NCBI GenBank assembly: GCA_964016885.1
Contig: OZ024741.1
Span: forward strand, 18,104,001 to 18,168,000
Direction of reading: 5' to 3'
Length of the DNA: 64,000 bases
Origin: Eledone cirrhosa
Lineage: Eukaryota
Shown here: piece by piece, positions 6,571 to 64,000 of the stretch
Layout of the letters: each line of letters begins with the position of its first letter
Position numbering within the stretch: the stretch's first letter is position 1
The notes under the pieces: generated by a model
The model's database searches: none
Told to the model about the DNA's origin: nothing
The model's input: only the letters and a program-made list of their open reading frames with translations
Program-made: the position numbers and the translations under genes

Positions 6571-6571
6571 G

Positions 6572-6815: not shown

Positions 6816-7039
6816 TATTATTCTATAGCGATTAGGTCTTCAAAATGTTTATTATAAACATACAGAATATTTTCGAATATTCTATGTCTATATTCACATA
6901 TATATCGCTATTTCAGAGCATTTATTCCAATTTCTAATTTCTGCCGGACCGGCAACCGCTCTTTCAAACCAGTTCCTGTACACAGCTAAGTATTCTATAA
7001 GTCTCTAGCTGTGTCATTCTCGATAAAAGCACTGGATAT

Positions 7040-7082
7040 GTAGTCCTGATGATTTCTAACAAGAATGAAACGCGTAGATTAC
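7040..7082 (+). ncRNA. Type I hammerhead ribozyme (copy 1)
   Basis: gtagtc-CTGATGA-t-ttct-aaca-agaa-t-GAAA-cgcg-TA-gattac; distal stem I attctcgataaaagca/tgcttttgtcgagaat (7016-7104). Confidence 0.9.
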
Positions 7083-7347
7083 TTCCCTTGCTTTTGTCGA
7101 GAATCTAATTGTAATACGTGACGTATTATTCTATAGCGATTAGGTCTTCAAAATGTTTATTATAAACATACAGAATATTTTCGAATATTCTATGTCTATA
7201 TTCACATATATATCGCTATTTCAGAGCATTTATTCCAATTTCTAATTTCTGCCGGACCGGCAACCGCTCTTTCAAACCAGTTCCTGTACACAGCTAAGTA
7301 TTCTATAAGTCTCTAGCTGTGTCATTCTCGATAAAAGCACTGGATAT

Positions 7348-7390
7348 GTAGTCCTGATGATTTCTAACAAGAATGAAACGCGTAGATTAC
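7348..7390 (+). ncRNA. Type I hammerhead ribozyme (copy 2)
   Basis: Same sequence as 7040-7082, shifted by 308. Confidence 0.9.
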
Positions 7391-7530
7391 TTCCCTTGCT
7401 TTTGTCGAGAATCTAATTGTAATACGTGACGTATTATTCTATAGCGATTAGGTCTTCAAAATGTTTATTATAAACATACAGAATATTTTCGAATATTCTA
7501 TGTCTATATTCACATATATATATATATATA

Positions 7531-14354: not shown

Positions 14355-14427
<73 letters not shown>

Positions 14428-14457
14428 GGTTGAGCACTCTACTGACTTATATTCATC

Positions 14458-16587
14458 ATGCAGAAACAACATCTGAATATTTTTACAAAGAACATACCCG
14501 TACCAAGCAGGAAAACATACCTAAAACTCCTGATACAGAAAACAGACGCGTTCATTAAAAGGTTGCGTTGGCGTGCCTTTTATTTCGATAATCCGCGAAA
14601 AGCAGACAACAAACAGGATAAATTTGGATTTAAAACCTATAATAACCCTCCGTGGAACCCAGCATTGCTACCCTTCGAAAATGATGTCTTGGAACTCATT
14701 CGGAGTATCAAATTTCGGAATAGGAGCAATTCCTTCCAGCAAGACCTGAAGAATAGAATTCGTTCTATTAAGGATTCTAACGCCGTGCATGTCCATTCCG
14801 ACAAAACTGGCAACCTATATCAAGTGGAGCGCAGTACTTACCATCAACTACTACATAATGCTGTAACTAAGGATTAGCATAAAACTAATCGGTGTGTCAT
14901 CAATGAAATCAACGATGCTGGGTTTAAAATCACATCTGATCTCAACATCCTGGATCGGACCGAACCTCTGGACCCTATCTCTCCCCACTTTAACCTGAAG
15001 GATCACAAATCCAATTTTCCGAACAACCCCTCTATTCGGCTTATTAACCCTACGAAGTCCGATTTAGGTAGACTTAGTAAAACGATTCTTGATAGAATTA
15101 TACCTGAAATTAGAAGTTTGGCCCCTCTCGCACTGTGGAACAATTCTTTCGCGGTGATTGATTGGTTCAACGGCATATGTAACAAGGAACATTGCCGTTT
15201 TACCCAATTCGACATCAACAATTACTACTCCTCCATGACTTTACCAATTCTCCTTAGAGCTATCAATTTCGCTAAAACACTCACAGTGATTAAGGATTTC
15301 GAAGTTGATGTCATCCTTAATGCCCGAAAGTCGGTGATTAATTTCGACGACTCTATTTGGATTAAAAAATCCAATAGTACTCCATTCGACGTGAGTATGG
15401 GCACCAGTGACTCTGCGGAGGTTACTGATCTTATTGGCCTTTTCCTTCTTTTCTCTATCAAGGACGAATTCCCCAACGCGGACGGTGGTTTGTACCGCGA
15501 CGATGGTCTTTTGACCATGACTAAGTGCGGACCTCGTGCTTGCGACAGGTTCAAAAAAGAACTCACAGCCTTCTTTAAAGGCTTCAACCTCTCTATACAG
15601 GTTGAGGCCAATCTCTCGGTCGTTAATTACCTCGACGTTACCCTCAATTTATTGAATGGGTTGTATTACCCGTATAGAAAGCCGAATGATACGCTTAATT
15701 ACATAAGTAAGCATTCCAACCATCCTGCCAGCATAACCAAGAACCTGGTAAAAAACGTTTCGTTGAGGCTTTCCCGTCTTTCCACCAACGAGCGCATTTT
15801 CAATGACCATTCCACTTATTACAATGAAGCTCTTGCTCGAAGTGGATTTGTCGATAAGGTAGCATATACAGAGTACGAAAATAGACCTAGAAGAAATAGA
15901 TCCCGTTGCATTTGATGGTTTAACCCACCATATAATATGGAGGTGGCCACACCATTAGCTAAGATCTTTCTTTCCCTTATTACGAAGCATTTTCCCCCTA
16001 CACATAAATATAGTAAAATTTTTAATAGAAATACTATTAAAATTTCTTACTCTACGACTCCTAACCTTGCACATAACATCACAGCTTCAAATTTAGCTAA
16101 ACTACCTAGCCGTAGGAACACGTGCAACCCTGTAGTTAGTACTAACTGTAATTGTAGGAATCGGGCTGATTGCCCCCTATCCGGGAAATGCCTCTCTAGT
16201 AACATTGTCTACAAATGTAAGGTTGTAACACCCACGTCCCGTAGGGCCTACATAGGGTTAACCGCCAATAGTTTCAAGCAGCGTCTTTACATGCATACCC
16301 ATTCTTTTCGTTACCCTCTAAGAAGGAATATGACATCACTTTCAGCTTATATCTGGAGTCTAAAAGACAACCACACCCAATATAAGTTACACTGGGAGAT
16401 CCTAGCTAGGGCTAGATCGTATAACGGAAATAAAAGACCATGTGACCTCTGCGCCGCTGAGGCCCTGGAAATACTCTACGCCACAGACCACATCTTAAAC
16501 AAAAAATCTGAGACAATTTCGGCTTGTAAACATAAATTGCACAAAACTTTCCTGTATTACAGCCCCACGTTATACCCTAACGGATAG
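14458..16587 (+). pseudogene. PLE reverse transcriptase-GIY-YIG endonuclease ORF (710 codons, 2 in-frame stops)
   Basis: ORFs 14458, 15118 and 15937 share one frame; TAG at 14875-77 and TGA at 15913-15. Motifs SDKTGN, FDINNYY, SMG, YRDDGL, NYLDVTL, IVYKC...YIGLT, CDLC. Confidence 0.92.
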
Positions 16588-17533
16588 TACGATCTATACG
16601 TGGATATTTTACGTCTTGATGTGGGAGCTAAGTATATGTTTTGTTTATTCCTTTACTTATTTGCATAGGTAAGTATATATTACCCGTATGTTTTGTGAAG
16701 GTATGTATACCTTCTCGTACGTATATTTGACTGTTATGGCGTATAATTTTTACATATTCTGGTATTTAGGTTTTGGCTATGTGTATACGGGAGTTTTGCG
16801 TCTGCGTGAGTATGCAGGTTCGTACGTATGGTGGGTGTGTGTATATGTGTACTTCTTGTTTTAGTTGACTTACGTCTCCGATCATTCGTGTATTTATTTG
16901 TAGGTATGTGTGTGCGCTTGTTATATACATATTTATTTACTTATATACGTTTATATAATTATTTATTTATTTGTACACAAGCATACACACACACACATAT
17001 TTATATGTGCGTGGTTTTGTATACCTATGGTAAGGTTTTGCGTATGCTTGTGTATGTACGTATCTGTTTGCGTTTCTGTTTGCGTGTATGTATTTATTTG
17101 TATTTGTTTCTATTACTTCTGTATTGTATTTATTTCCTTTGTTCTTAACTCTGTAGCGGAGATTCATTTGGTCTCCTAGTTAGAATTTTAGTCTACGACT
17201 TCTGCTATACCATTTACGTGGTTTTGTCTTTGCGTGCTATTGTTCTCCACGCTACACATATGACGTATTATCTTCGTTTTTTCGTTCATTGTCAGAGAAC
17301 GTCTCTATGCACTACCTAAGAGAACATTAGTCTACGACCTCTTTTATACCATAAACGTGGTTCTGTCTTTGCGCGTAATTGTTTTTCACCGCTCCTATTA
17401 ATGACGTATTATTCGTTTTTTCCCGTTCTTTGCTAGCGAACGTTTCCACGAACCAAAGTATCGTCTTCCTGTCTTCCTCCGGTTGCAATGTTTTTTGAAA
17501 TATCCAGTTCTGCGTTTACAGATTGACTTTGTT

Positions 17534-17584
17534 AGTTTCAGAAGATCCCGTTAAGGGTGAAAGCAGCGATTCTTTGCTTAAACT
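17534..17584 (+). ncRNA. HHR at the PLE 3' end, with variant core CAGAAGA
   Basis: agttt-CAGAAGA-t-ccc-gttaa-ggg-t-GAAA-gca...tgc-TT-aaact; distal pairing acagatt/aatctgt. Confidence 0.7.
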
Positions 17585-17607
17585 TTAATCTGTTATTTTA
17601 ATAAATA

Positions 17608-17763
<156 letters not shown>

Positions 17764-19037
17764 CACTTTGATAACTTTGATAGGTTTCGGCCAGTATTGG
17801 ACCAGGCCATGTCTAACTTCATAGCACCACCTGGCGAAGTCTTACAAATCAGGATATGGGCACCATGGCCCACTCGAGTAGAGAGTTATTGATACGGAGG
17901 CACATCCGGGTGTAGGAGGCTTATCCGGGATTTCTTGAAGGAATTTGTCCAAAGACTTCTTTAACTTGATGGCGTCTGTTTCTGCTTTGATGTGTTTTGG
18001 TGTAATGTTAAAGAGTGCAGGGCCAATTGAGGTGAAATAATTGTGCCGGATTGTTGTTATGTGATGCGAGTGAGATTTTTGTCGTAGGCGAATAGCACGG
18101 GGCCCAAGCCTTGGGTTTACATTAAAGGTGAAGTCAACATCATTTTGACAAAGCTGATGGAATATTTTCCACATCATACAGATAATGTAGCGTTCACGGC
18201 GACGTTGGAAAGTATAAAGGTTGAGCTTTTCTAATCGACTCCAATATTCAAGGCCTGTCATGCCATCTATCTTTTTTGTAATTGACCTTTGGGGTGCTTT
18301 ACTTTCATGATACTTTGTTTCGTGTGGGGTGACCACAGTGGACAACAGTATTCAAGGTGGGGTCGGGCAAAAGTGGAGAAGAGAAGGATAGCAGTGTGGA
18401 TATCTCTCGACTGGAAAGTTATGAGAATCCAGGGACACATTCTGCGGGCCATGTCAACTTTGCTGTTTATATGAGTGGCCCAGCTTATATTGTTGTCCAC
18501 AATTACTCCCAGGTCTCTGATGTTGTTGGATGCCACTAGAGTTTCAACCGAAGGAAGAGAGTATGGTTGTTTCAGGGCATCCTTATTTCCAAAGTGGATT
18601 AATTCAAACTTATCCTCCTTCAACAGCATATTATTCTTTTCTGCCCATTGGATAACAGCCAGTAGGTCTAACTGAAAGCAAGTCCGGTCACTCACCTCAT
18701 TGATGACCCTTTGGAGCTTGGAATCATTTGCGAAGATTCTGATGTTGCTGTGTTTGATGATGTCAGTAATGTCATTAATGTAGATGATGAAAAGAAGTGG
18801 GCCCAACACAGTGTCTTCTGGGACGCCACTGCTGACTTTGGCAGGGCTTGATTTTACTCCTTCGACTACAACATGTTGGGCTCTGTCTGTCAGGAAACAT
18901 TTGATCCACAGTAGTAACTTTCCAGAGACACCAATATTGGATAGTTTTTTCAGTAGAATCTTATGATCAACCCTGTCGAAGGCCTTGCTGAGATCAAGGT
19001 AGATGACATCAGTGTTGGAGCCCTCTCCCAAGGCTCA
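17764..19037 (-). pseudogene. CR1/L2-group LINE, 5'-truncated RT + 3' end
   Basis: [56 protein letters not shown]; frameshift near 18300; tail of (tcaaagtta) repeats. Confidence 0.9.
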
Positions 19038-19218: not shown

Positions 19219-19223
<5 letters not shown>

Positions 19224-19752
19224 CAAATAACGAAACGAAATTAAATTTCGTTTCGCTTGTAACTCACTTTTGTATGACTGACGCTTAAACAATTAAGTTA
19301 AAAATGTACATCTACATATGCATACTGAAATACTAGTGTGTATATGAATACACACACGTATACATATGTAGGTGTACCAAGTCTTTCACTGGTCGCTTTA
19401 CAGTGAGCGGCCCAGCTATTCTGTATGTAAACACACAGACAAACCGGTTTTTAGAGTCATACTGGTTTTCGGGGGAAACACCTTCCCTCTATTCTCCAGA
19501 AAGCCAGACAAGGAATATTGAACTAGTTTCGTTGTTGTTACAACTCATCAGCAATATTTACCTATCTACCGGCCTTTCTGGAGAATTGTAAAAGCACATA
19601 TCGTTATATGTGTGTTTACATACAGAATAGCTGGGCCGCTCACTGTAAAGCGACCAGTGAAAGACTTGGTACACCTACATATGTATACGTGTGTGTATTC
19701 ATATACACACTAGTATTTCAGTATGCATATGTAGATGTACATTTTTAACTTA

Positions 19753-19756
<4 letters not shown>
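19219..19756. mobile_element. Fold-back HHR element, family C, in (TA)n
   Basis: Inverted arms ~19289-19437 and ~19608-19756. Minus-strand HHR at 19514-19558: aatattg-CTGATGA-gttgt-aaca-acaac-GAAA-ctag-TT-caatatt. Confidence 0.85.
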
Positions 19757-27396: not shown

Positions 27397-29245
27397 ATAG
27401 ACACAGTGGTTATTGCCTCTGTGATAGAGAACCTAGACTGTAGCTGTCATTACCGGTTCTATAGACACAGTGGTTATTGCCTCTGTGATAGAGAACCTAG
27501 ACTGTAGCTGTCATTACCGGTTCTATAGACACAGTGGTTACTGCCTCTGTGATAGAGAACCTAGACTGTAGCTGTCATTACCGGTTCTATAGACACAGTG
27601 GTTATTGCCTCTGTGATAGAGAACCTAGACTGTAGCTGTCATTACCGGTTCTATAGACACAGTGGTTATTGCCTCTGTGATAGAGAACCTAGACTGTAGC
27701 TGTCATTACCGGTTCTATAGACACGGTGGTTATTGCCTCTGTGATAGAGAACCTAGACTGTAGCTGTCATTACCGGTTCTATAGACACGGTGGTTATTGC
27801 CTCCATGATAGAGAACCTAGACTGTAGCTGTCATTACCGGTTCTATAGACACGGTGGTTATTGCCTCTGTGATAGAGAACCTAGACTGTAGCTGTCATTA
27901 CCGGTTCTATAGACACGGTGGTTATTGCCTCTGTGATAGAGAAATTAGACTGTAGCTGTCATTACCGGTTCTATAGATACGGTGGTTATTGCCTCCGTGA
28001 TAGAGAACCTAGACTGTAGCTGTCATTACCGGTTCTATAGTCACGGTGGTTATTGCCTCCGTGATAGAGAACCTAGACTGTAGCTGTCATTACCGGTTCT
28101 ATAGACACGATGGTTATTGCCTCCGTGATAGAGAACCTAGACTGTAGCTGTCATTACCGGTTCTATAGTCACGGTGGTTATTGCCTCCATGATAGAGAAA
28201 TTAGACTGTAGCTGTCATTACCGGTTCTATAAACACGGTGGTTATTGCCTCCGTGATAGAGAAATTAGACTGTAGCTGTCATTACCGGTTCTATAGACAC
28301 GCTGTTTGTCTCAGTAATAGAGGATCGTGACTGTAGCTGTCATTACCGGTTCTATAGACACGCTGTTTGTCTCAGTAATAGAGGATGGTGACTGTGGCTG
28401 TCATTACCGGTTCTATAGACACGCTGTTTGTCTCTGTAATAGAGATCGTGACTGTAGCTATCATTACCGGTTCTATAGACACGCTGTTTGTCTCAGTAAT
28501 AGAGGATCGTGGCTGTAGCTGTCATTACCGGTTCTATAGACACGCTGTTTGTCTCTGTAATAGAGATCGTGACTGTAGCTATCATTACCGGTTCTATAGA
28601 CACGCTGTTTGTCTCAGTAATAGAGGATCGTGGCTGTAGCTGTCATTACCGGTTCTATAGACACGCTGTTTGTCTCTGTAATAGAGATCGTGACTGTAGC
28701 TATCATTACCGGTTCTATAGACACGCTGTTTGTCTCAGTAATAGAAGATGGTGACTGTGACTGTCATTACCGGTTCTATAGACACGCTGTTTGTCTCAGT
28801 AATAGAGGATGGTGACTGTGACTGTCATTACCGGTTCTATAGACACGCTGTTTGTCTCTGTAATAGAGGATGGTGACTGTGGCTGTCATTACCGGTTCTA
28901 CAGACACGCTGTTTGTCTCAGTAATAGAGGATCGTGGCTGTAGCTGTCATTACCGGTTCTATAGACACGCTGTTTGTCTCAGTAATAGAGGATGGTGACT
29001 GTGGCTGTCATTACCGGTTCTATAGACACGCTGTTTGTCTCTGTAATAGAGGATGGTGACTGTGACTGTCATTACCGGTTCTATAGACACGCTGTTTGTC
29101 TCAGTAATAGAGGATGGTGACTGTGGCTGTCATTACCGGTTCTATAGACACGCTGTTTGTCTCAGTAATAGAGGATGGTGACTGTGGCTGTCATTACCGG
29201 TTCTATAGACACGCTGTTTGTCTCAGTAATAGAGGATGGTGACTA
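27397..29245. repeat. Compound minisatellite: 14 x 64-bp, then ~15 x 60/61-bp
   Basis: Shared core gactgtagctgtcattaccggttctatagacac; the unit switches at ~28297. Confidence 0.95.
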
Positions 29246-32185: not shown

Positions 32186-32939
32186 ACACAGTAAAAGAGT
32201 ACATGGTTTGAATTATTGAAAATGGCCGACTACATAGCAATGTTATGAGTCAGAATGCGTAGTTACATTTAAGATGGCGTCACACTCTGTTGCAAACACC
32301 ATTGGACTATCTATAAGTATCACTTCAGAAGGAAAGTGAGAGTGGAGAGAGAGGTGCTACACCCCAGTAAATTCGCTGAAAGGTGGGTGAATGTAGCAAA
32401 AATGGCTCGAGTGAATGGGCCTTCTCTGTATATAAACCTGTAGGTTGCGGAAGATAAACGGGGGGAAGACGGGAACACCTACAAAACGTGTTTCTGGTGT
32501 TCAGGGTTGTTCTATCCACGGGGTGTAAAACAACCCTGCAGTAGTGTTACCCCGCACCGCTAATGGGAATTTCAATTGTTTTATTTTATATAGTTTATTG
32601 TTATTTATCATTGTTAAAGATTTTATGTAAAGCCTCCGCCGTCACGTCTTGCAATGTCCCATTTTTGTACTCCCCTGTGGCAAATAAAGAAAGATATCTA
32701 TCTATCTGTCTAGTGCCCCCCCCCCCCTATTGGGGATTTCGATTGTTGTAATTGTTTGTTTTTATATTTTTTACACGACTGTATGTAAAATCTCCGGCAT
32801 GTCTTTGTATTGTCCCCTTTCTTGTTGCGCCCTTGTGGCTAATAAAGAAATCTATCTATCTACCTACCTATCTATCTATCTACCTATCTATCTATCTCCT
32901 TTGTTGTGCCCCTGTGGCTAATAAAGAAACATATCTATC

Positions 32940-33636
32940 GATGGCGTCGTCGGGCGCTGGACGGAGGGCCCGGTGGACCCGGCTGTCAGTGGAGAATCCA
33001 CCTCGTCATCCTATAGAGGGCTGGTGGTTAGCAGGTGCGACGACGCCCTCGGAGAAGCCCCAGGCATGGAGGAAGACGAACTGGCCAACCTGTTCGGTAG
33101 GACATACAGCCCGAGACCCATGGATAACTTCCAGAGGTCCCTGGCCTGGCAGTGCTACCGAGGGGTTCTGCCCGTCCGAGAAAGGCTCTACAAACACGGG
33201 CGCCCGGGTAGGGACCCCTCGAAAAAGATCTGTCCCAGATGCGTGTGCGGCGAGGAAACCGTTGCACTCGCATTGGTACAGGGCTCAGGTATTGCCGATC
33301 TGTGGGGCTATGTCGAACAACTGCTGTCAAGGGTGGGACCGATCCGGTTGACCACCGAGTCTATTGTAACGATCAAGCCGCCTCCCTTCTTCAAAAACGA
33401 AGAAGAGGCGGTGTTTCTGTGCGTAATAGCCATGGCGAAAGAGGTTGTATGGTGGACGCGTCTGAAAGGACTGAGGTCAGACACCTTTCTCTCTGGCCAA
33501 CAACTGGTCTGTTTCTTCCGATATCAGTTCGGAAGAAGGATCAGGATGGAGGGAGAGGTGCTGCACCCCAGCCGTTTTTATGAAAGTGGCGAGAATGGCC
33601 CGTGTGAATGGGCCTTCACTCTACATCACTATAGGT
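32940..33636 (+). pseudogene. Tx1/L1 ORF2 C-terminal zinc-knuckle fragment
   Basis: AWQCYRGVLPVRERL...CPRC...ETVALAL; paralogous to 34829-35554. Confidence 0.85.
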
Positions 33637-33970
33637 GAGGAAGATGAAAGATCAAGGGAGCACCCCTCTCTGTGCTCCTGAGGAGAAGGGTTGCACACTT
33701 TTTTTTTTGGGGGGGGGGTGCGACCCCGCAAGGCGTCTCCTCCCTATTGAGGATTTTGTTATTAAATTTATTTTTGTTATATTTTATATATTATTTTTTA
33801 TATCTTGTCATTGCCTCTTCCTTATTGAGGACGCCTTTTTATGTAAACTCCTCCCCATTGTACTTGTTCCACTCTTTGATGCCCTGGTGGCAAATAAAAC
33901 GAAAGTTATCTATCTATCTATCTCTCTGCCTACCTATCTATCTATCTATCTACCTACCTATCTATCTCTC

Positions 33971-35554
33971 TCCGGATTGCTGCAATGCACAACAGCAACA
34001 ACTGCTCAAGGGTCAAGGTGAACGGCTACCGCTCAGAGCCGTTCCATATCACGCGATCCATCCGAGAGCGATGCCCTCTCTCCTCCCTTCTGTACGTACT
34101 GACTCTCGAGCCACTACTGCGGAAGTTGGAGCTATTGCAGGGCATCCCTTTGGAACCGGGACTGCGAAAAACGACGTGACAGTAATGGTGTCGAGCACCT
34201 CGCAAATCGAGGAGATCGGCACCTTACTGGAGGAATACGAAAGGTTCACAGGAGCGAAGCTGAACCGGGACAAATCCGTCGGTTTGCAACTCGGAACGTG
34301 GAGAGGCAAACCGATGCCTTCCGATGACGTCGTCGGACGCTGGACGGAAGGACCGGTAAAGCTGCGCGGGGTCTGGTTTGGTCTTGACCTCCAGGTGGAG
34401 AAGAACTGGAACGAGGTGACGGCCAAGGTGTTTGCGCTCACCCAGAAGTGGGCCGAGTGCAAACTATCCTTGAAAGGTCGAGCGGAGGTGGCGAACACTT
34501 TTATAGCGTCCGTCATCTACTACCGCTTGACCGTCGTGCCTTGTCCAGCCAAAACCGCTCACCAAAATGGAGCGCGCGCTCTTCCATTTCCTTTGGAAGA
34601 AACGGGCTCCTTTGGTGAGAAGATCCATCTGCTGCCAACACCCTTCAAACGGAGGGCTGGGGATGCCATGGCTGACGATGCGCAAATACGCGTTCAGGCT
34701 GCGGCACCTCCACGTATTCCTCACCAGACAATCGGTGTTGGCCCCGTTCGTGAGGCGAGCCCTCCCACTTCCCACGACTCATCTCGCTGACCGAGCTGCA
34801 GTCCTGGGTCAATCAAAGACCGAGGAAAATGGGCGACTGGCACATCGAATGTGCTCAGGCGCTCACAGTCCTCTGGCAAACGGACCCGGCGATCAGTGGA
34901 AACTCCACTTCGACATTCTATAGAGGGTTGGTCCGCAGCAAGTGCGACGACACGCTCGGAGAAACTCTAGACGTAGAGGAGGACGAACTGTCCAGTCTGT
35001 TCGGTACGACCTTCCGCCCGGGATCAATGGACAACTTCCAAAAGTGCCTGGCCTGGCAGTGCTACCGAGGAGCTCTACCAGTTCGAGACAAGCTCTACAG
35101 ACACGGGCGCCCGGGTAGGGACCCCTCGAAAAAGATCTGTCCGAACTGCGTGCGCGACGAGGAAACCGTCGCACACGCATTTGTACACTTCCCGGGCGTT
35201 ACCGACCTGTGGGGCTATGTAGAACGACTATTGTCGCGGGTGGTACCAATCCAGTTGACCACCGAGTCCATTGTCATGATCAAACAGCCACCCTCCTTCA
35301 AAAACGAGGGAGAGGCGGTTTTCCTATGTGTTATGGCTATGGTGAAAGAGGTTATATGGTGCACGAGGTTAAAAGGGCTGAGGTCAGACACCTTTCTCTC
35401 CGGCGAGCAACTGATTCGTTTTTTTAAATATCATTTTGGAAGAAGAATCAGGATGGAGAGAGAGGTGCTGTACCCCAGCAAATTTTATAAAAGGTGGGTG
35501 AATGTGGCAAAGATGGCCCGAGTGGTTGGGCCTTCTCTCTATATAAGCCTGTAG
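33971..35554 (+). pseudogene. Tx1/L1 ORF2 RT-to-C-terminus, frameshifted
   Basis: RERCPLSSLLY..LEPL, KLNRDKS, KLSLKGR, GGLGMP, CPNC...ETVAHAF. The YADD region is deleted. Confidence 0.88.
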
Positions 35555-36473: not shown

Positions 36474-36481
36474 TTACTACC

Positions 36482-36517
<36 letters not shown>

Positions 36518-36555
36518 GCTACTACTGCTACTACTGCTACTACTACTACTACCAT

Positions 36556-36598
<43 letters not shown>

Positions 36599-36643
36599 GC
36601 TACTACTGCTACTACTGCTACTACTACTACTACCATTACTACC

Positions 36644-36694
<51 letters not shown>

Positions 36695-36747
36695 GCTACT
36701 ACTACTACTGCTACTACTGCTACTACTGCTACTACTACTACTACCAT

Positions 36748-36790
<43 letters not shown>

Positions 36791-36828
36791 GCTGCTACTA
36801 CTACTACTGCTACTACTACTACTACCAT

Positions 36829-36871
<43 letters not shown>

Positions 36872-36907
36872 GCTACTACTGCTACTACTACTACTACCAT
36901 TACTACC

Positions 36908-36967
<60 letters not shown>

Positions 36968-37020
36968 GCTACTACTACTACTGCTACTACTGCTACTACT
37001 GCTACTACTACTACTACCAT

Positions 37021-37060
<40 letters not shown>

Positions 37061-37098
37061 GCTGCTACTACTACTACTGCTACTACTACTACTACCAT

Positions 37099-37141
<43 letters not shown>

Positions 37142-37228
37142 GCTGCTACTACTACTACTGCTACTACTACTACTACCATTACTACCACCACTACTACTGC
37201 TGCTACTACTACCACCACCACTACTACC

Positions 37229-37270
<42 letters not shown>

Positions 37271-37308
37271 GCTACTACTGCTACTACTGCTACTACTACT
37301 ACTACCAT

Positions 37309-37351
<43 letters not shown>

Positions 37352-37460
37352 GCTGCTACTACTACTACTGCTACTACTGCTACTACTACTACTACTACTG
37401 CTGCTGCTACTACTACTACTACTGCTACTACTGCTACTACTACTACTACTACTACTGCTG

Positions 37461-37491
<31 letters not shown>

Positions 37492-37519
37492 TACTGCTAC
37501 TACTACTACTACCATTACT

Positions 37520-37573
<54 letters not shown>

Positions 37574-37634
37574 GCTGCTACTACTACTACTACTTCTACT
37601 ACTGCTACTACTACTACCACTACTTCTACTACTT

Positions 37635-37675
<41 letters not shown>

Positions 37676-37676
37676 T

Positions 37677-37749
<73 letters not shown>

Positions 37750-37816
37750 TACTGCTGCTACTACTACTACTTCTACTACTTCTACCACTACTACTACTAC
37801 AACTACTACTTCTGCC

Positions 37817-37848
<32 letters not shown>

Positions 37849-37958
37849 TACTGCTGCTACTACTACTACTTCTACTACTACTTCTACCACTACTACTACT
37901 AATACTACTACTTCTACCACTACTACTACTACAACTACTACTTCTGCCACTACTACTA

Positions 37959-38003
<45 letters not shown>

Positions 38004-38060
38004 ATACTACTACTTCTACCACTACTACTACTACAACTACTACTTCTGCCACTACTACTA

Positions 38061-38109
<49 letters not shown>

Positions 38110-38126
38110 CTCTACTACTACTACTT

Positions 38127-38164
<38 letters not shown>

Positions 38165-38277
38165 GCTACTTCTACTACTACTTCTACTACTACTACTACT
38201 ACTACTTCTACTACTACTACTGTTGTTGCTGCTGCTACTACTACTACTTCTACTACTACTACTACTACTACTACTGT

Positions 38278-38308
<31 letters not shown>

Positions 38309-38417
38309 ACTACTACTACTACTGCTGCTGCTACTACTATTACTACTTCTAGTACTACTACTACTTCTGCTGCTGCTGCTTCTGTCATTACTACTACTAC
38401 CACTACTACTACTACTA
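36474..38417. repeat. ~1.9-kb cryptic (TAC)n trinucleotide array
   Basis: TAC with CAC/TGC/TTC variants; source of the 580-720 aa low-complexity ORFs. Confidence 0.97.
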
Positions 38418-45355: not shown

Positions 45356-45408
<53 letters not shown>

Positions 45409-45469
45409 GAAGTATTTCCGTAGGAAAGGTAAAGGAAAAGAGAGTGCTCTATGTAGGCTACAGAGCTTT

Positions 45470-45656
45470 TTAGTTATGTAATAAACAACATAAGATAATT
45501 CATTTACCAGTGGTTTCTTGAAGACAGATGTTTATGTGTCTTCATTCATCAGAAAGAATAATATTATTCTTTCTGATGAATGAAAACAGACATAAACATC
45601 TGTCTTCAAGAAACCACTGGTAAATTAATTATCTTATGTTGTTTATTACATAACTA
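45470..45656. mobile_element. ~186-bp palindrome with one HHR per arm
   Basis: Centre 45562/45563. Plus: CTGATGA at 45573, tgaa..acaga/tctgt..ttca stem II, GAAA-ccactgg-TA. Confidence 0.8.
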
Positions 45657-45827
45657 TATATATATATATAAACTATCGCAGTGTTGAGTTAATTGAAATT
45701 GAAATTCTTCGAGAATGTAGCAGCCACAAAGGCATAAAATATCTGTAACAACAGTCGATTATTATCAATAATAGCTTAGATAAATCGAGTAAAAAACCGA
45801 TAATATTTTATTATTTATAACAATCGA

Positions 45828-49768: not shown

Positions 49769-50151
49769 AAAAAATAAAAAATAAAAAATAAAAAATAAAA
49801 AATAAAATTTTTTTTTTTAAATCCTTAAAAAATTCTTTAAAAAATTCTTTAAAAAATTCTTTAAAAAATTCAAAAAAATTTCAAAAAATCTCAAAAAATT
49901 TTTAAAATTTAAAAATATCATAGAATATTTTAAGCTAAAATAATATGTTTAGTATAGAAATTTATCTTACGTATATTTTTTTCAAGATATTGAAAGGATA
50001 AACTTTTCTAGAATAGTTTATTATATTTATAATTATATTTATGAAGACAATTTATACTTGGGTACTTAACCAAAGAAAATGAAAAAGGTGAAGGAATCTA
50101 ATGATTTATCGACAGGTTTCGTATATTAACTAAATTATTTAATTAATTAAA

Positions 50152-50410
50152 CTACATTTTAAATTTATATTTATATTTAAACGTTGAGTTCAATCTATGT
50201 CTGCAGCAACTGAATAAATTATTCCTTAAATTAAGGGAATTTTTGGTCTTTAATATAAAAAATATTTCCTCTATACAAAGATCACAATTTTCAGAAGAGG
50301 AATTAAAAGGAGTAGCTTTTGAAATAATATTCCAAATCAGCGAATATTCTACATTATCTCGTTTTAGGTCCCATAATAGGCTAGATAGCGAAGTTGAAGA
50401 TTTTCTAGAT
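50152..50410 (-). pseudogene. PLE GIY-YIG C-terminal part
   Basis: SSTSLSSLLWDLK...WNII...CDLCIEE...LNLR...CCRH, homologous to the end of ORF 15937-16587. Confidence 0.88.
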
Positions 50411-51207
50411 GTAACACTAAATCTAAACACATGTCTTCATTATCCATTTCACAAACTAAATGAGAACTTAAATTATGTCAATTTTAACTCTAATTACCCC
50501 AGATCCGTTAAAAATACTATAGTGAACTCGGTTCAAGAACGAATTTCAAGAATTTCATCTAATAAGAATATATTTGATGAAAAAGCGCATTATTACAACG
50601 AAGCGTTAGGTAGAGCTGGGTATAGAAATAAAATTAAATACATCGATAATAATAATAATATACAAAATAACCAAAATAATAACTTTAATTATGGTAACAA
50701 TTTCAACAACTATAATAGAAAATATTACAATAACTCCGAAAGCCGAAAAAGAAATAGAACTAGGAATATATTATGGTTCGCTCCTCCTTTCTCACTAAAT
50801 ATTAAAACCCCTATTGCTAAACTATTCTTTAAATCTCTTGACAAACGATTCCCTAGAACACATAAATATTACTCAATTTTTAATAGACATACTATAAAAT
50901 TAACTTACTCTTCCACCAAAAATTTAGCGCAAAATATTAATAGAATTAATAATAGAAATTTAAAACCTAACCAAAATACCAATAATAACCCAAGCAATAT
51001 TCAATCGAATAACTGTAACTGTAGAAATAAATCAAACTGTCCGTTAAATAACAACTGCTTAGCTAAAAGTGTAGTTTATAATTGTAATGTTAAAACTAAT
51101 TTAAATTCATTTAACTATGTCGGTTCTACCTCTACAGAATTTAAATCCCGCTTCAATAATCATAAAAATTCTTTTACAGATCTAAGCAAAAAATCTTCAA
51201 CTTCGCT
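50398..51207 (+). pseudogene. PLE RT thumb, linker and GIY-YIG N-terminal part
   Basis: FLDVTLNL...SNYP...WFAPPF...CNCRNKSNCPLNNNC...VVYNC...YVGST...KKSSTS. Confidence 0.9.
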
Positions 51208-52853
51208 TTTTTTATTTTTTATTTTTTATTTTTTATTTTTTATTTTTTATTTTTTATTTTTTATTTTTTATTTTTATTTTTATTTTTTATTTATTATTTT
51301 TTATTTTTTAAAATTTTTTTAAATTTTTTAATATTTTTTTAATATATTGATATCTGTAGAATCCTTGTTTTTTAAGTTATAATATTTTATTTTTATTTTT
51401 TTATTAGATTCATTTTATTTATTTTTTTATTAGATTCATTTTTTGTATTAGATTCATTTTATTTTTTATTTTTTATTAGATTTGTTTTTATTCTGATAGC
51501 TTCTCATAATTTGTATTAGATTTATTTTTTATTCTGATAGTTTCTCATAATTTTCAAAAGTTTGTCCTTTCAATGTCTTGATTAAAATATACGTAAGATA
51601 AATTTCTATGCTAAATATATTAAACATATTATTTTAACTTGAAATATTTTAGGATATTTTAGTATTTTGATGTTTGTAGAATTCGTTTGCCTTTTAAGTT
51701 ATATTGATATAATTATATTTCCAAAATATAATCCTTTTGTATTTTATATACTCAATTGTACTGTTATATATTGATGTATACTTGTGTCTATATACGGCTT
51801 ATGTATCTATATGTGCGTGTTGACATACATATACATGTGTTATATGTTTTTTTTGTGATTATATATCTGTCTGTATATATGCATGAGTGACGCGTGTATA
51901 CCAATTGAAGATGCACACACATATCTATTCATGTATAGTTAAGAATTATGGGTGTGAGTGTACAGGCTTACACATGCAGCTTTTGATTGGAGATATGCAT
52001 AATTTAACAGCCATAAATGCAGAAAAGTTAATCCTATATATTTATATATATATATACTAAAATTTTTAAATTAATAACACAAGGAGTGTATAGCAATAAA
52101 TAAAAAAATCACTTATGCTTTGTATGTATACATTATGTGCGGGAGTAGATATAATGTGTATTTTTTTAGTGAGTGAGTATATATATATATATTTATGTAC
52201 CTTTGCCTATGTATATGTGATATACGATAGATAATCTCTCTAGCAATATATATATTTTATAATGTTTAAATTCCAATTTTTAATATATTGATCTCAATTT
52301 TTAAACTAAATATATAATCATAATTAAACAATGTGTAATTTCTCATATTATATATCTATATTCCATTCACGAATATTAATATTTCTAATTTTATTTATTC
52401 ATTTCATCTCAATTGTTAACTCAACTTAATATGACATAACTTAAGGTTTCGTTCTCTCCCCCACTCTCTCTATCTCTACATATCTCTCTCTGAGTTCTTT
52501 CTCTGTCTGATGTTTTGATATCTCCCCGTTATTTTTCCTCTGTTCTCTTTTCTTTTTGCTTTCTTCTTTTTCTTTATCTATCTTTCCCTTTCTCTTTTTC
52601 TCCACGTTTTTCTCTATCTCTCCATCTTTTACTTACTCTTAACACTATGACTTACTAAAGTAAACAAACCACTATCCGGATGGCCTCCCAAAACAACGGT
52701 CACCTTTTTGAAAGGGTACGTCAATATCTATTTGTAAAACTGTTATATATTGTATTTTGTCTGATGAAGGCATACCATGATTTAACTTGGTATCCTTGAA
52801 ATATATATAATGAAATAAATATGGTTTTATAAATATAGTTTCCATTTATTAAT

Positions 52854-52859
<6 letters not shown>

Positions 52860-52904
<45 letters not shown>

Positions 52905-52960
52905 ATATATATATATATATATATCCATATATATATATATATCCATATATATATATATAT

Positions 52961-53046
<86 letters not shown>

Positions 53047-53100
53047 ATATATATATATATATATCCATATATATATATATATCCATATATATATATATAT

Positions 53101-53196
<96 letters not shown>

Positions 53197-53238
53197 ATAT
53201 ATATATATATATATCCATATATATATATATATATATAT
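52860..53238. repeat. (TA)n interrupted by CC, left flank of the array
   Basis: atatcc variant; continues in the same orientation at 57889-58630. Confidence 0.95.
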
Positions 53239-56200
53239 ATAAATTGAAACAAAATGAAAACGAAATTTCATTTCTCACTCTTAGTATGGCACTTACTTAA
53301 ATGTAAGTATGCATGTATACGTACATACATATATGTATACAGACGTACAGTAGCATGCACATATATATATATATATACATATATACATACATATGCATAC
53401 AGGTACACATACATATATGCACGTATCAGTTTAGCGGCGCTAACGTCGCTTTGTTCGTTTGTAAACAAACTGAACAGCCTGAATTTATGCCATACGGTGT
53501 TAAGGCAACCACGTCACCTTTTTGTTCAACACTGACACAGGAACGATGTACTAGTTTCAAGCTTGTTAGCTATCATCAGCACCGTTTACCCATCTGCCAG
53601 ATAGTTGAACGTTCGAAAGTATATACTTTCCTTATGAAAATTAACGGCTGAGCAGCCTAATTTGCATATTGAGTGAGTTAAATCGGTCAGGCATACCGAA
53701 AACGATAAATTGAAACAAAATGAAAACGAAATTTCATTTCTCACTCTTAGTATGGCACTTACTTAAATGTAAGTATGCATGTATACGTACATACATATAT
53801 GTATACAGACGTACAGTAGCATGCACATATATATATATATATACATATATACATACATATGCATACAGGTACACATACATATATGCACGTATCAGTTTAG
53901 CGGCGCTAACGTCGCTTTGTTCGTTTGTAAACAAACTGAACAGCCTGAATTTATGCCATACGGTGTTAAGGCAACCACGTCACCTTTTTGTTCAACACTG
54001 ACACAGGAACGATGTACTAGTTTCAAGCTTGTTAGCTATCATCAGCACCGTTTACCCATCTGCCAGATAGTTGAACGTTCGAAAGTATATACTTTCCTTA
54101 TGAAAATTAACGGCTGAGCAGCCTAATTTGCATATTGAGTGAGTTAAATCGGTCAGGCATACCGAAAACGATAAATTGAAACAAAATGAAAACGAAATTT
54201 CATTTCTCACTCTTAGTATGGCACTTACTTAAATGTAAGTATGCATGTATACGTACATACATATATGTATACAGACGTACAGTAGCATGCACATATATAT
54301 ATATATATACATATATACATACATATGCATACAGGTACACATACATATATGCACGTATCAGTTTAGCGGCGCTAACGTCGCTTTGTTCGTTTGTAAACAA
54401 ACTGAACAGCCTGAATTTATGCCATACGGTGTTAAGGCAACCACGTCACCTTTTTGTTCAACACTGACACAGGAACGATGTACTAGTTTCAAGCTTGTTA
54501 GCTATCATCAGCACCGTTTACCCATCTGCCAGATAGTTGAACGTTCGAAAGTATATACTTTCCTTATGAAAATTAACGGCTGAGCAGCCTAATTTGCATA
54601 TTGAGTGAGTTAAATCGGTCAGGCATACCGAAAACGATAAATTGAAACAAAATGAAAACGAAATTTCATTTCTCACTCTTAGTATGGCACTTACTTAAAT
54701 GTAAGTATGCATGTATACGTACATACATATATGTATACAGACGTACAGTAGCATGCACATATATATATATATATACATATATACATACATATGCATACAG
54801 GTACACATACATATATGCACGTATCAGTTTAGCGGCGCTAACGTCGCTTTGTTCGTTTGTAAACAAACTGAACAGCCTGAATTTATGCCATACGGTGTTA
54901 AGGCAACCACGTCACCTTTTTGTTCAACACTGACACAGGAACGATGTACTAGTTTCAAGCTTGTTAGCTATCATCAGCACCGTTTACCCATCTGCCAGAT
55001 AGTTGAACGTTCGAAAGTATATACTTTCCTTATGAAAATTAACGGCTGAGCAGCCTAATTTGCATATTGAGTGAGTTAAATCGGTCAGGCATACCGAAAA
55101 CGATAAATTGAAACAAAATGAAAACGAAATTTCATTTCTCACTCTTAGTATGGCACTTACTTAAATGTAAGTATGCATGTATACGTACATACATATATGT
55201 ATACAGACGTACAGTAGCATGCACATATATATATATATATACATATATACATACATATGCATACAGGTACACATACATATATGCACGTATCAGTTTAGCG
55301 GCGCTAACGTCGCTTTGTTCGTTTGTAAACAAACTGAACAGCCTGAATTTATGCCATACGGTGTTAAGGCAACCACGTCACCTTTTTGTTCAACACTGAC
55401 ACAGGAACGATGTACTAGTTTCAAGCTTGTTAGCTATCATCAGCACCGTTTACCCATCTGCCAGATAGTTGAACGTTCGAAAGTATATACTTTCCTTATG
55501 AAAATTAACGGCTGAGCAGCCTAATTTGCATATTGAGTGAGTTAAATCGGTCAGGCATACCGAAAACGATAAATTGAAACAAAATGAAAACGAAATTTCA
55601 TTTCTCACTCTTAGTATGGCACTTACTTAAATGTAAGTATGCATGTATACGTACATACATATATGTATACAGACGTACAGTAGCATGCACATATATATAT
55701 ATATATACATATATACATACATATGCATACAGGTACACATACATATATGCACGTATCAGTTTAGCGGCGCTAACGTCGCTTTGTTCGTTTGTAAACAAAC
55801 TGAACAGCCTGAATTTATGCCATACGGTGTTAAGGCAACCACGTCACCTTTTTGTTCAACACTGACACAGGAACGATGTACTAGTTTCAAGCTTGTTAGC
55901 TATCATCAGCACCGTTTACCCATCTGCCAGATAGTTGAACGTTCGAAAGTATATACTTTCCTTATGAAAATTAACGGCTGAGCAGCCTAATTTGCATATT
56001 GAGTGAGTTAAATCGGTCAGGCATACCGAAAACGATAAATTGAAACAAAATGAAAACGAAATTTCATTTCTCACTCTTAGTATGGCACTTACTTAAATGC
56101 CTGACCGATTTAACTCACTCAATATGCAAATTAGGCTGCTCAGCCGTTAATTTTCATAAGGAAAGTATATACTTTCGAACGTTCAACTATCTGGCAGATG

Positions 56201-57888
56201 GGTAAACGGTGCTGATGATAGCTAACAAGCTTGAAACTAGTACATCGTTCCTGTGTCAGTGTTGAACAAAAAGGTGACGTGGTTGCCTTAACACCGTATG
56301 GCATAAATTCAGGCTGTTCAGTTTGTTTACAAACGAACAAAGCGACGTTAGCGCCGCTAAACTGATACGTGCATATATGTATGTGTACCTGTATGCATAT
56401 GTATGTATATATGTATATATATATATATATGTGCATGCTACTGTACGTCTGTATACATATATGTATGTACGTATACATGCATACTTACATTTAAGTAAGT
56501 GCCATACTAAGAGTGAGAAATGAAATTTCGTTTTCATTTTGTTTCAATTTATCGTTTTCGGTATGCCTGACCGATTTAACTCACTCAATATGCAAATTAG
56601 GCTGCTCAGCCGTTAATTTTCATAAGGAAAGTATATACTTTCGAACGTTCAACTATCTGGCAGATGGGTAAACGGTGCTGATGATAGCTAACAAGCTTGA
56701 AACTAGTACATCGTTCCTGTGTCAGTGTTGAACAAAAAGGTGACGTGGTTGCCTTAACACCGTATGGCATAAATTCAGGCTGTTCAGTTTGTTTACAAAC
56801 GAACAAAGCGACGTTAGCGCCGCTAAACTGATACGTGCATATATGTATGTGTACCTGTATGCATATGTATGTATATATGTATATATATATATATATGTGC
56901 ATGCTACTGTACGTCTGTATACATATATGTATGTACGTATACATGCATACTTACATTTAAGTAAGTGCCATACTAAGAGTGAGAAATGAAATTTCGTTTT
57001 CATTTTGTTTCAATTTATCGTTTTCGGTATGCCTGACCGATTTAACTCACTCAATATGCAAATTAGGCTGCTCAGCCGTTAATTTTCATAAGGAAAGTAT
57101 ATACTTTCGAACGTTCAACTATCTGGCAGATGGGTAAACGGTGCTGATGATAGCTAACAAGCTTGAAACTAGTACATCGTTCCTGTGTCAGTGTTGAACA
57201 AAAAGGTGACGTGGTTGCCTTAACACCGTATGGCATAAATTCAGGCTGTTCAGTTTGTTTACAAACGAACAAAGCGACGTTAGCGCCGCTAAACTGATAC
57301 GTGCATATATGTATGTGTACCTGTATGCATATGTATGTATATATGTATATATATATATATATGTGCATGCTACTGTACGTCTGTATACATATATGTATGT
57401 ACGTATACATGCATACTTACATTTAAGTAAGTGCCATACTAAGAGTGAGAAATGAAATTTCGTTTTCATTTTGTTTCAATTTATCGTTTTCGGTATGCCT
57501 GACCGATTTAACTCACTCAATATGCAAATTAGGCTGCTCAGCCGTTAATTTTCATAAGGAAAGTATATACTTTCGAACGTTCAACTATCTGGCAGATGGG
57601 TAAACGGTGCTGATGATAGCTAACAAGCTTGAAACTAGTACATCGTTCCTGTGTCAGTGTTGAACAAAAAGGTGACGTGGTTGCCTTAACACCGTATGGC
57701 ATAAATTCAGGCTGTTCAGTTTGTTTACAAACGAACAAAGCGACGTTAGCGCCGCTAAACTGATACGTGCATATATGTATGTGTACCTGTATGCATATGT
57801 ATGTATATATGTATATATATATATATATGTGCATGCTACTGTACGTCTGTATACATATATGTATGTACGTATACATGCATACTTACAT
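53239..57888. mobile_element. ~10 x 466-bp HHR-containing tandem array (retrozyme-like) with internal inversion
   Basis: Units at 53241+466n up to 56099, inverted block 56097-57888. HHRs on minus at 53542-53586 (+466n, six copies) and on plus at 56205-56249 (+466n, four copies). Confidence 0.93.
56205..56249 (+). ncRNA. Type I hammerhead ribozyme (representative of 10 copies)
   Basis: aacggtg-CTGATGA-t-agct-aaca-agct-t-GAAA-ctag-TA-catcgtt; distal stem I gttcaac..ctggca/tgtcag..gttgaac. Confidence 0.92.
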
Positions 57889-57904
57889 ATATATATATAT
57901 ATAT

Positions 57905-57974
<70 letters not shown>

Positions 57975-58156
57975 ATATATATATATCCATATATATATAT
58001 ATATATCCATATATATATATATATATATATCCATATATATATATCCATATATATATATATATCCATATATATATCCATATATATATATATATATCCATAT
58101 ATATATATATATCCATATATATATATATCCATATATATATATATATGGATATATAT

Positions 58157-58220
<64 letters not shown>

Positions 58221-58274
58221 ATATATATATATATATATCCATATATATATCCATATATATATATATATATATAT

Positions 58275-58372
<98 letters not shown>

Positions 58373-58428
58373 ATATATATATATATATATATATATATAT
58401 CCATATATATATATATATATATATATAT

Positions 58429-58474
<46 letters not shown>

Positions 58475-58528
58475 ATATATATATATATATATCCATATAT
58501 ATATATATATCCATATATATATATATAT

Positions 58529-58610
<82 letters not shown>

Positions 58611-58630
58611 ATATATATATATATATATAT
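57889..58630. repeat. (TA)n interrupted by CC, right flank of the array
   Basis: Same atatcc variant as 52860-53238. Confidence 0.95.
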
Positions 58631-58811
58631 AGATAGCACGTGTCTGATACGCTGAGAGGCAGTGTTAGGGATTTCTGACACATTAGTCAAACATGTCCTC
58701 CTGTGATATAGGACTATAGTAAAAGAGAAGAGAAAGACATGTAAGGTACATGGTTGAAATAAAAATAGGTTTTGTAGTTGGTAGATTATAGTGGCAGTAA
58801 CAGGTGTTTAG

Positions 58812-62311: not shown

Positions 62312-62565
<254 letters not shown>

Positions 62566-63747: not shown

Positions 63748-63752
<5 letters not shown>

Positions 63753-64000
63753 CAAATAACGAAACGAAATTTAATTTCGTTTCGTTATTTGTTTTTATCG
63801 TCTCCGCTGAACCGGTACGTACTCACGCTCTATGCAAATTGGTCTGCCCACTACTAATTTTCATAGAAAAAGCATATAACGATATGTGCTTTTACGATTC
63901 TCTAGAAAGGCCGGAAGATAGGTAAATATTGCTGATGAGATGTAACAACATCGAAACTAGTCCAATATTCCTGTCTGGCTTTCTAGAGAATAGAGGAAAG
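63748..64000 (+). mobile_element. Family C element with HHR at 63925-63969, running off the window
   Basis: aatattg-CTGATGA-gatgt-aaca-acatc-GAAA-ctag-TC-caatatt; starts with a short fold-back at the (TA)n junction. Confidence 0.88.

What the first reader, a model, noticed from the sequence alone, without database searches (positions are those of the whole stretch)
53239..57888. Decamer of identical 466-bp hammerhead monomers: footprint of a circular-RNA replicon-like element
Seen: 4650 bp, which is 10 x 466 minus 10 nt. Ten intact type I HHRs, no differences between units that I could spot, and no credible ORF. It interrupts one (TA)n-CC microsatellite whose two halves keep the same orientation. 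Known: non-LTR retrozymes are HHR tandem repeats processed into circular RNAs and thought to use PLE RT. Inference: a very recent single insertion made by rolling-circle reverse transcription, since a linear 10-mer RNA should self-cleave. Transcription from either side would release 466-nt monomers, and read-through gives long dsRNA.
Basis: partly seen in the sequence, partly recalled or inferred. Interest (0 to 1): 0.9.

Follow-up and report, generated by a model that had tools for sequence, protein, structure and literature searches.

The report
Two-armed hammerhead retrozyme insertion
Ten identical copies of a 466-base non-coding repeat with a predicted self-cutting RNA motif sit back-to-back (six one way, four the other) in a TA microsatellite, likely pasted in one event by a Penelope-type retrotransposon enzyme copying one RNA, probably a circle, from two fixed start points.

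Summary
The array is real but is not a head-to-tail decamer. It is two arms joined head-to-head at a 3-nt microhomology: 6.14 units on - and 3.85 on +. All units are identical, each with a minimal type I hammerhead. The family has about 10,000 hammerhead copies in this genome. Arms end in (TA)n at two fixed monomer sites about 62 nt apart, S and T. Of 54 head-to-head pairs, 39 are S+T and none is S+S or T+T; the other 15 have one or both ends elsewhere. An intact-ORF Penelope-like (Hydra-type) family in the genome shows the same rule (10 of 10). Both arms of an insertion share one haplotype (0.4% apart, against 3.1% between insertions). Copying crosses the predicted cut site in 294 of 296 passes. 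This fits Penelope-type priming of both target strands on one uncut template: circle about 60%, uncleaved linear multimer about 30%. Two of 20 young arrays are mosaic, against a single monomer circle. No RNA data were available and the partner enzyme was not identified. It is a new family of known non-LTR retrozymes; the scan noted the same layout earlier on other DNA.

The parts
53239..56099 (-). Arm A (T arm): 6.14 identical units. Its 3' end (monomer position 310, counting from the base after the predicted cut) abuts the left (TA)n; its 5' end is position 246.
56097..57888 (+). Arm B (S arm): 3.85 identical units; 5' end at position 321, 3' end at position 248 against the right (TA)n.
56097..56099 (.). 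Head-to-head junction, 3-nt microhomology shared by both arms.
56243..56708 (+). Reference monomer, cut site to cut site, 466 nt, 36% GC. As a circle it folds to -152.4 kcal/mol against -106.2 +/- 5.2 for 60 shuffles; the antisense strand gives -113.5.
56205..56249 (+). Minimal type I hammerhead: 7-bp stem I, CUGAUGA, short stem II, GAAAC-UA-GUA; predicted cut after 56242. Repeats at 56671-56715, 57137-57181, 57603-57647.
55872..55916 (-). Same hammerhead on arm A; repeats at 55406-55450, 54940-54984, 54474-54518, 54008-54052, 53542-53586.
   Evidence: cores at 55909 ... 53579
53239..53300 (-). 62-nt 'tail' between the S and T start sites; present at the left end of the insertion only.
57880..57888 (+). 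S end. In the isolated 106-nt fold the site lies in the loop of the hairpin UACUUAC/GUAAGUG; pairing of this hairpin in the whole circle was not established.
   Evidence: the check was mis-indexed and is not used
56363..56478 (+). Long TA/TG-rich hairpin inside each unit; its length varies between arrays.
   Evidence: z -5.2, 0 of 200 shuffles as stable
56124..56131 (+). ATGCAAAT octamer, also kept in the sister family. A promoter role is recalled from newt satellite 2 and is untested.
   Evidence: literature search found nothing
52858..53238 (.). Left half of the (TA)n-CC target microsatellite.
57889..58632 (.). Right half of the target microsatellite, same CC orientation. A target-site duplication cannot be read inside the repeat.

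Best explanation
This is one young insertion of a non-coding, hammerhead-bearing repeat (a non-LTR retrozyme) in a TA microsatellite, built of two back-to-back arms that end at two fixed sites, and it was likely written by a Penelope-like retrotransposon protein copying a single, probably circular, 466-nt RNA. Shown in DNA: two arms, fixed S and T 3' ends in (TA)n, S+T pairing, one haplotype per insertion, scattered 5' ends, no stop at the cut site. Inferred: (1) arrays are transcribed, cut by the hammerhead (likely as a dimer, through the self-complementary ACUAGU) and ligated to monomer circles; (2) a Penelope-like RT-endonuclease, predicted dimeric in PMC11167929, binds the tail region and cuts both strands of (TA)n; (3) one DNA end primes at T and the other at S on the same RNA; (4) each RT runs round the template a variable number of times; (5) the two cDNAs are joined by short microhomology. 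In this window that gave 6.14 and 3.85 rounds.
For: Fixed ends: of 155 arms in 86 loci, 78 end at T (283-313) and 57 at S (236-256), against 7% and 5% expected if uniform (windows set). Pairing: 39 of 54 head-to-head pairs are S+T, 0 S+S, 0 T+T. By coordinates alone, 44 of 45 neighbouring ends within 12 kb, among 100 T and 68 S ends on contig C1, are divergent S+T (overlaps the first set). Control: a 713-aa PLE family shows S+T outer ends in 10 of 10 two-armed insertions with both ends readable, in 20 loci. One template: core divergence 0.39% within arms, 0.40% between arms, 3.1% between insertions; the partner arm is closer than the median other arm in 26 of 26. Twelve of 20 young arrays carry variants fixed in every full unit, across both arms in L121, L122, L189, L192, L193 and L196. 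Uncut template: 294 of 296 passes cross the cut site, 2 stop at positions 1-6 against 2.1 expected, and none of 18 bins over all 173 arms shows a pile-up of 5' ends. The hammerhead is conserved across five variants: 8 of 13 pairs change on both sides and the core is kept, which implies that cutting matters somewhere in the cycle although insertions ignore the cut site. Literature: two RT start sites bounding the tail, both strands cut and extended (PMC11167929); inverted 5'-truncated copy, tail often at one end only, (TA)n targets (PMC8557442); circular RNA proposed as the RT template (PMC7229834).
Against: No RNA evidence of any kind. Two of 20 young arrays are mosaic: L104+119 repeats a three-unit motif (446T, plain, 8-nt deletion) three times, once in the other arm, and L120 has a block of five like units; a single monomer circle does not give this. 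Some fixed variants are shared between arrays (327A plus an 8-nt insertion in L122, L189, L192), and the window's monomer recurs unchanged in L127, L190 and L191, so homogeneous linear masters could also give homogeneous daughters. Young arrays show a slight excess of 5' ends at 1-26 (8 against 3.2, p 0.017 uncorrected, 1 of 18 bins). Return-to-start stops, which a circle predicts, are weak (S arm 4 against 1.3, p 0.04; T arm tests not significant). Many loci were picked with a pattern that spans the cut site, which inflates crossings. Pairwise divergences are dominated by long arrays and are not independent. No autonomous element sharing the tail or hammerhead was found.
Confidence: 0.6

Rival explanations
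1. Same Penelope-type double priming, but the template is an uncleaved linear multimer transcribed from a long genomic array; the hammerhead is slow or acts elsewhere.
For: Unprocessed RNA was the dominant substrate for the anole element and its hammerhead needed protein (PMC11167929). The hammerhead here is minimal. Mosaic arrays L104+119 and L120 and variants shared between arrays. Slight excess of 5' ends just after the cut site in young arrays.
Against: Needs under 1% cutting per site over arms of up to about 15 units. A fixed transcript start should pile up 5' ends at one phase, and none is seen. Linear copying alone cannot make new variants fixed across all units, yet 12 of 20 young arrays have them.
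Confidence: 0.3
2. A short two-armed insertion was later expanded in the DNA by unequal crossing-over, slippage or gene conversion, like a satellite (the local-amplification model in the discussion of bioRxiv 10.64898/2026.07.22.740005).
For: Block and mosaic patterns in L120 and L104+119.
Against: In most arrays later substitutions are single-unit, not nested in neighbours. Arm lengths fall off smoothly and the least diverged arrays are among the longest. The window has no unit differences at all.
Confidence: 0.07
3. Assembly artefact (fold-back chimera or mis-sized repeat).
For: No listed public contig bridges this junction, which is not a test of the source reads.
Against: The junction is not a mirror fold-back (positions 246 and 321). 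Dozens of loci show the same geometry, each with its own junction. The exact unit count could still be off.
Confidence: 0.02
4. Footprint of an autonomous viroid-like RNA replicon integrated into the genome.
For: Highly self-paired circular fold.
Against: Hammerhead on one polarity only; about 10,000 genomic copies with retrotransposon-type ends.
Confidence: 0.01

Closest known systems
Metazoan non-LTR retrozymes (Cervera and de la Pena 2020, PMC7229834; Li, Clavereau and Pollet 2026, bioRxiv 10.64898/2026.07.22.740005)
   Same: Non-coding, low-GC tandem units of a few hundred bases, one type I hammerhead per unit, thousands of copies, self-paired circular fold, coexisting Penelope-like elements.
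   Different: Unit of 466 nt is just above the 150-450 bp range quoted. The hammerhead is the minimal form, not the canonical one. In the passages I read, neither paper describes inverted arms, fixed 3' ends or microsatellite targets for retrozymes.
Penelope-like element insertions (Craig et al. 2021, PMC8557442)
   Same: Inverted 5'-truncated copy, tail often at one end only, (TA)n targets, no readable target duplication.
   Different: No ORF; tail about 62 nt rather than 30-40; arms hold many full units; S+T pairing was strict among typed pairs here.
PAc (Poseidon, Anolis) in vitro mechanism (Frangieh et al. 2024, PMC11167929)
   Same: Two internal RT start sites bounding the tail, both strands cut and extended, AT-rich target, predicted dimer.
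   Different: That study saw no difference in start site between strands and did not pair the two sites within one insertion; the template was linear RNA.
L1 twin priming
   Same: Two primers on one RNA, inverted arm, microhomology junction. Ten T arms are tail-only (40-61 nt), stopping near S.
   Different: Start sites are fixed and internal; 34 of 39 T arms run past the S site, so the second primer usually does not block the first.

Membership tests
Non-LTR retrozyme | Tandem units of a few hundred bp, GC under 45% | tested here: met
   466 bp, 36% GC
Non-LTR retrozyme | Complete type I hammerhead (canonical or minimal) in at least two consecutive units, fold under -5 kcal/mol (Li et al. criterion) | tested here: met
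   6 and 4 consecutive; MFE -9.5, stems I+II alone -6.0; covariation
Non-LTR retrozyme (narrow sense, canonical hammerhead) | Canonical helix sizes and loop-loop contact | tested here: not met
   Stem III is 2 bp with a 2-nt loop; minimal type
Non-LTR retrozyme | No protein | tested here: met
   Stop-free stretches at most 114 aa, low complexity
Non-LTR retrozyme | Dispersed multi-copy family | tested here: met
   10,333 exact hammerhead matches, 0 for the reversed control
Non-LTR retrozyme | Self-cleavage of the RNA | not testable with these tools
   Needs in vitro transcription
Non-LTR retrozyme | Expressed as linear and circular monomer RNA | not testable with these tools
   No RNA holder listed
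Penelope-type insertion | Inverted 5'-truncated arm, tail at one end, microsatellite target | tested here: met
Autonomous Penelope-like element | RT plus GIY-YIG ORF | tested here: not met
Derivative of a PLE pseudo-LTR | Sequence homology to the terminal repeat of an autonomous PLE in the genome | tested here: inconclusive
   Monomer searched against 78 PLE or GIY-YIG loci: hits looked like separate retrozyme copies or the TA block, and none recurred within a PLE family; most PLE families were not sampled
Viroid-like RNA replicon | Ribozymes on both polarities or RNA-to-RNA replication | tested here: not met
   Hammerhead found on one polarity only; replication itself not testable

The most novel reading that the evidence does not exclude
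These arrays are direct genomic records of two reverse transcriptases of one Penelope-type dimer rolling round a single 466-nt circular RNA from two fixed sites, one on each end of the cut target. That would explain at once the retrozyme multimers, the inverted arm and the one-sided tail of Penelope-like elements, and perhaps the tandem Penelope copies, whose T end is joined straight to the element's 5' end.
Probability: 0.45. Interest if true: 0.75.

Novelty: new member of a known kind. Interest (0 to 1): 0.52.

Why it matters
How Penelope-like elements make tandem and inverted copies with a one-sided tail is stated as open (PMC8557442), and that retrozyme circles are copied by Penelope enzymes is a proposal (PMC7229834; bioRxiv 2026). 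Here a short, young, high-copy, protein-free substrate carries the full Penelope signature with countable rules: S+T pairing, one haplotype per insertion, no stop at the cut site. It gives a 466-nt RNA, two mapped start sites and a (TA)n target for a direct test of circle against line. Searches for 'retrozyme' with 'twin priming' or 'rolling circle reverse transcription' found no paper; 'Penelope' with 'twin priming' listed three papers on other subjects (listing only). The library lacks most subscription papers, so absence from print is not established.

Tried and rejected
DNA search of the own genome with the monomer returned nothing; exact patterns showed this was the tool skipping common words. 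Rfam: no family at the gathering score; miRNA hits at low score come from the TA/TG hairpin and were rejected. No RNA holder listed among public runs, which says nothing on expression. Laying contigs and one Hi-C run gave no bridge over the junction and no test. Classical twin priming as the general rule was rejected: 34 of 39 T arms pass the S site. A cleaved linear monomer as template was rejected: arms cross the cut site and do not start there. The near-integer length as proof of a 10-mer template was rejected (3 of 39). The partner element was sought through two window PLE families and a GIY-YIG family search without success. Pfam did not recognise the window's PLE pieces. The first pair count used a stem I that was off by one column and was replaced. 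The S-hairpin probabilities were mis-indexed and not used. A search for the newt octamer promoter paper found none. Supplements of the papers were not read; those of PMC7229834 (model figure S9) and of the bioRxiv preprint could bear on the novelty claim.

Full report
What is there. The stretch 53239-57888 is two exact arrays of one 466-bp unit in opposite orientation. Numbering the monomer from the base after the predicted hammerhead cut (window 56243 = 1), arm A (53239-56099, hammerhead on -) runs from position 246 through six full rounds to 310, and arm B (56097-57888, hammerhead on +) from 321 to 248. They share three bases at the head-to-head junction, and both 3' ends abut a (TA)n-CC microsatellite whose halves keep their orientation. 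There is no difference between units and no credible ORF.

The ribozyme. Each unit has CUGAUGA and GAAAC-UA-GUA between a 7-bp stem I and a short stem II. Stem III is two pairs around a 2-nt loop, the minimal form; ACUAGU is self-complementary (duplex -6.8 kcal/mol), which would allow the dimer fold that PMC7229834 describes for amphibian hammerheads with a short helix III. Five variants from this genome (this family, two copies of a sister family, a 308-bp family, an older variant) keep the core and change 8 of 13 pairs on both sides; 92% of cells pair, 0 of 500 shuffles reach this, and slid controls give 26-48%. With five related sequences this is descriptive. Activity is untested.

The family. 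The own genome (3.0 Gb, organism not identified here) holds 10,333 exact copies of the 37-nt hammerhead, 11,360 of a tail 33-mer and 4,465 of a marker of the window's young subfamily; that subfamily has 1,039 T ends and 727 S ends directly followed by TA. I fetched loci from the listed matches, all on contig C1, so counts below are samples, not genome totals.

Insertion rules. Of 155 arms in 86 loci, 78 end at T (283-313), 57 at S (236-256), 13 in the unit's own TA block and 7 elsewhere. Of 54 head-to-head pairs, 39 are S+T, none S+S or T+T, and 15 have at least one end in the TA block or interrupted; one tail-to-tail neighbour was seen. From coordinates alone, 44 of 45 neighbouring ends within 12 kb are divergent S+T. 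Most junctions overlap by a few bases.

One template. Core positions differ by 0.39% within arms, 0.40% between arms and 3.1% between insertions; in 26 of 26 two-armed insertions with at least 60 shared positions the partner arm is closer than the median other arm, and in 6 no other arm is as close. In 20 young arrays with three or more full units (136 units), 96 units equal their array's majority and 12 arrays carry variants fixed in all units. Against a simple reading: L104+119 and L120 are mosaic, some fixed variants are shared among arrays, and the window's own monomer recurs unchanged in three other arrays.

Cut or uncut. Over 173 S or T arms, 294 of 296 passes cross the cut site; 2 stop within 6 nt of it against 2.1 expected. 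Among 67 T arms of the first 69 Mb of C1, a set that includes every locus listed by the tail pattern but also loci chosen by the hammerhead pattern, 64 of 64 cross. The template is thus not a cleaved monomer. It is a closed circle or an uncut multimer. A conserved ribozyme that insertions ignore, the lack of any fixed 5' end and array-wide fixed variants favour the circle; the mosaics, a slight excess of stops at 1-26 in young arrays and the anole result that unprocessed RNA is used keep the linear rival alive.

The enzyme. The window itself holds a Penelope-like element (14425-17600). Its family has many near-identical copies, several with a 713-aa open frame. The protein shows the RW(R), DKT, CxCX5C, CxxC and CxH motifs that PMC8557442 gives for the Hydra clade (read by eye, no tree built). 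It inserts into (TA)n with two 3' ends 88 nt apart, and its two-armed insertions are S+T in 10 of 10 readable cases among 20 loci. It shares no sequence with the monomer and I found no hammerhead in it, so it shows that the machinery is present and recently active, not that it is the partner. Other PLE families sampled gave no match either.

Comparison. It works like a Penelope-type insertion and meets the DNA-level criteria of a non-LTR retrozyme in the wider sense; RNA-level criteria could not be tested. Papers seen: PMC11167929, parts 1-2 of 4 (abstract, main text, start of methods); PMC8557442, keyword passages and the Hydra section; PMC7229834, keyword passages and discussion; bioRxiv 10.64898/2026.07.22.740005, part 1 of 5, keyword passages and discussion; others as search listings only; no supplements. 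L1 twin priming and the newt octamer promoter are recalled. The one-sided tail and the inverted arm are in print for Penelope-like elements; their strict S+T pairing, the shared haplotype of the arms and their presence on retrozyme arrays were not found in the passages read or in searches. Earlier notes of this scan describe the same layout for other families in this and other genomes; I read them after forming this reading.

Verdict. Real, recent and single-event. A new family of a known kind, with unusually clean evidence on how such RNAs are written into the genome. Penelope-type double priming on one uncut template is about 90% likely, and that the template is a circle about 60% overall. 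Interest 0.52.

Noticed in passing
window 19219-19756 and 63748-64000: Sister hammerhead family: two-armed copy in (TA)n with one long and one short end, and a second copy cut by the window edge; shares the octamer, the tail hairpin and the UAACAA loop with the main family.
   Followed up: partly
window 6816-7521: 308-bp tandem family (2.3 identical units) with hammerheads at 7046 and 7354, ending in TA; it abuts another two-armed hammerhead element at about 6571-6815, which has a further copy near 62435-62560.
   Followed up: partly
window 45404-45660: Two-armed hammerhead-like element folded back at a palindrome, flanked by TA.
   Followed up: no
window 14425-17600: Penelope-like element with Hydra-type motifs, one in-frame stop in this copy, S-type end in (TA)n. 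No hammerhead was found, although PMC8557442 calls hammerheads universal in that clade.
   Followed up: partly
L131, L133, L136, L137: In tandem copies of that PLE the T end is joined directly to the element's 5' end, as a circular or read-through template would give.
   Followed up: no
window 50147-51322: Fragment of a second, AT-rich Penelope-like family with many genomic copies, some with 743-749-aa open frames; its ends were not mapped.
   Followed up: partly
L104 + L119 (G000:C1:69.578-69.587 Mb): About 19-unit two-armed array in which a three-unit variant motif recurs three times, once in the opposite arm.
   Followed up: partly
L214, L218, L226: A further hammerhead motif resembling that of the 308-bp family lies within a few kb of GIY-YIG-bearing PLE frames; it may be a pseudo-LTR or another retrozyme.
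   Followed up: no
window 1117-5987, 27413-29244, 36475-38417: Long minisatellites (50 bp x 97, about 61-64 bp x 29) and a (TAC)n tract of about 650 units.
   Followed up: no
window 17842-19034 and 32925-35554: Fragments of LINE-type reverse transcriptase elements (RVT_1 hit for 18270-19034; the second judged by eye).
   Followed up: no
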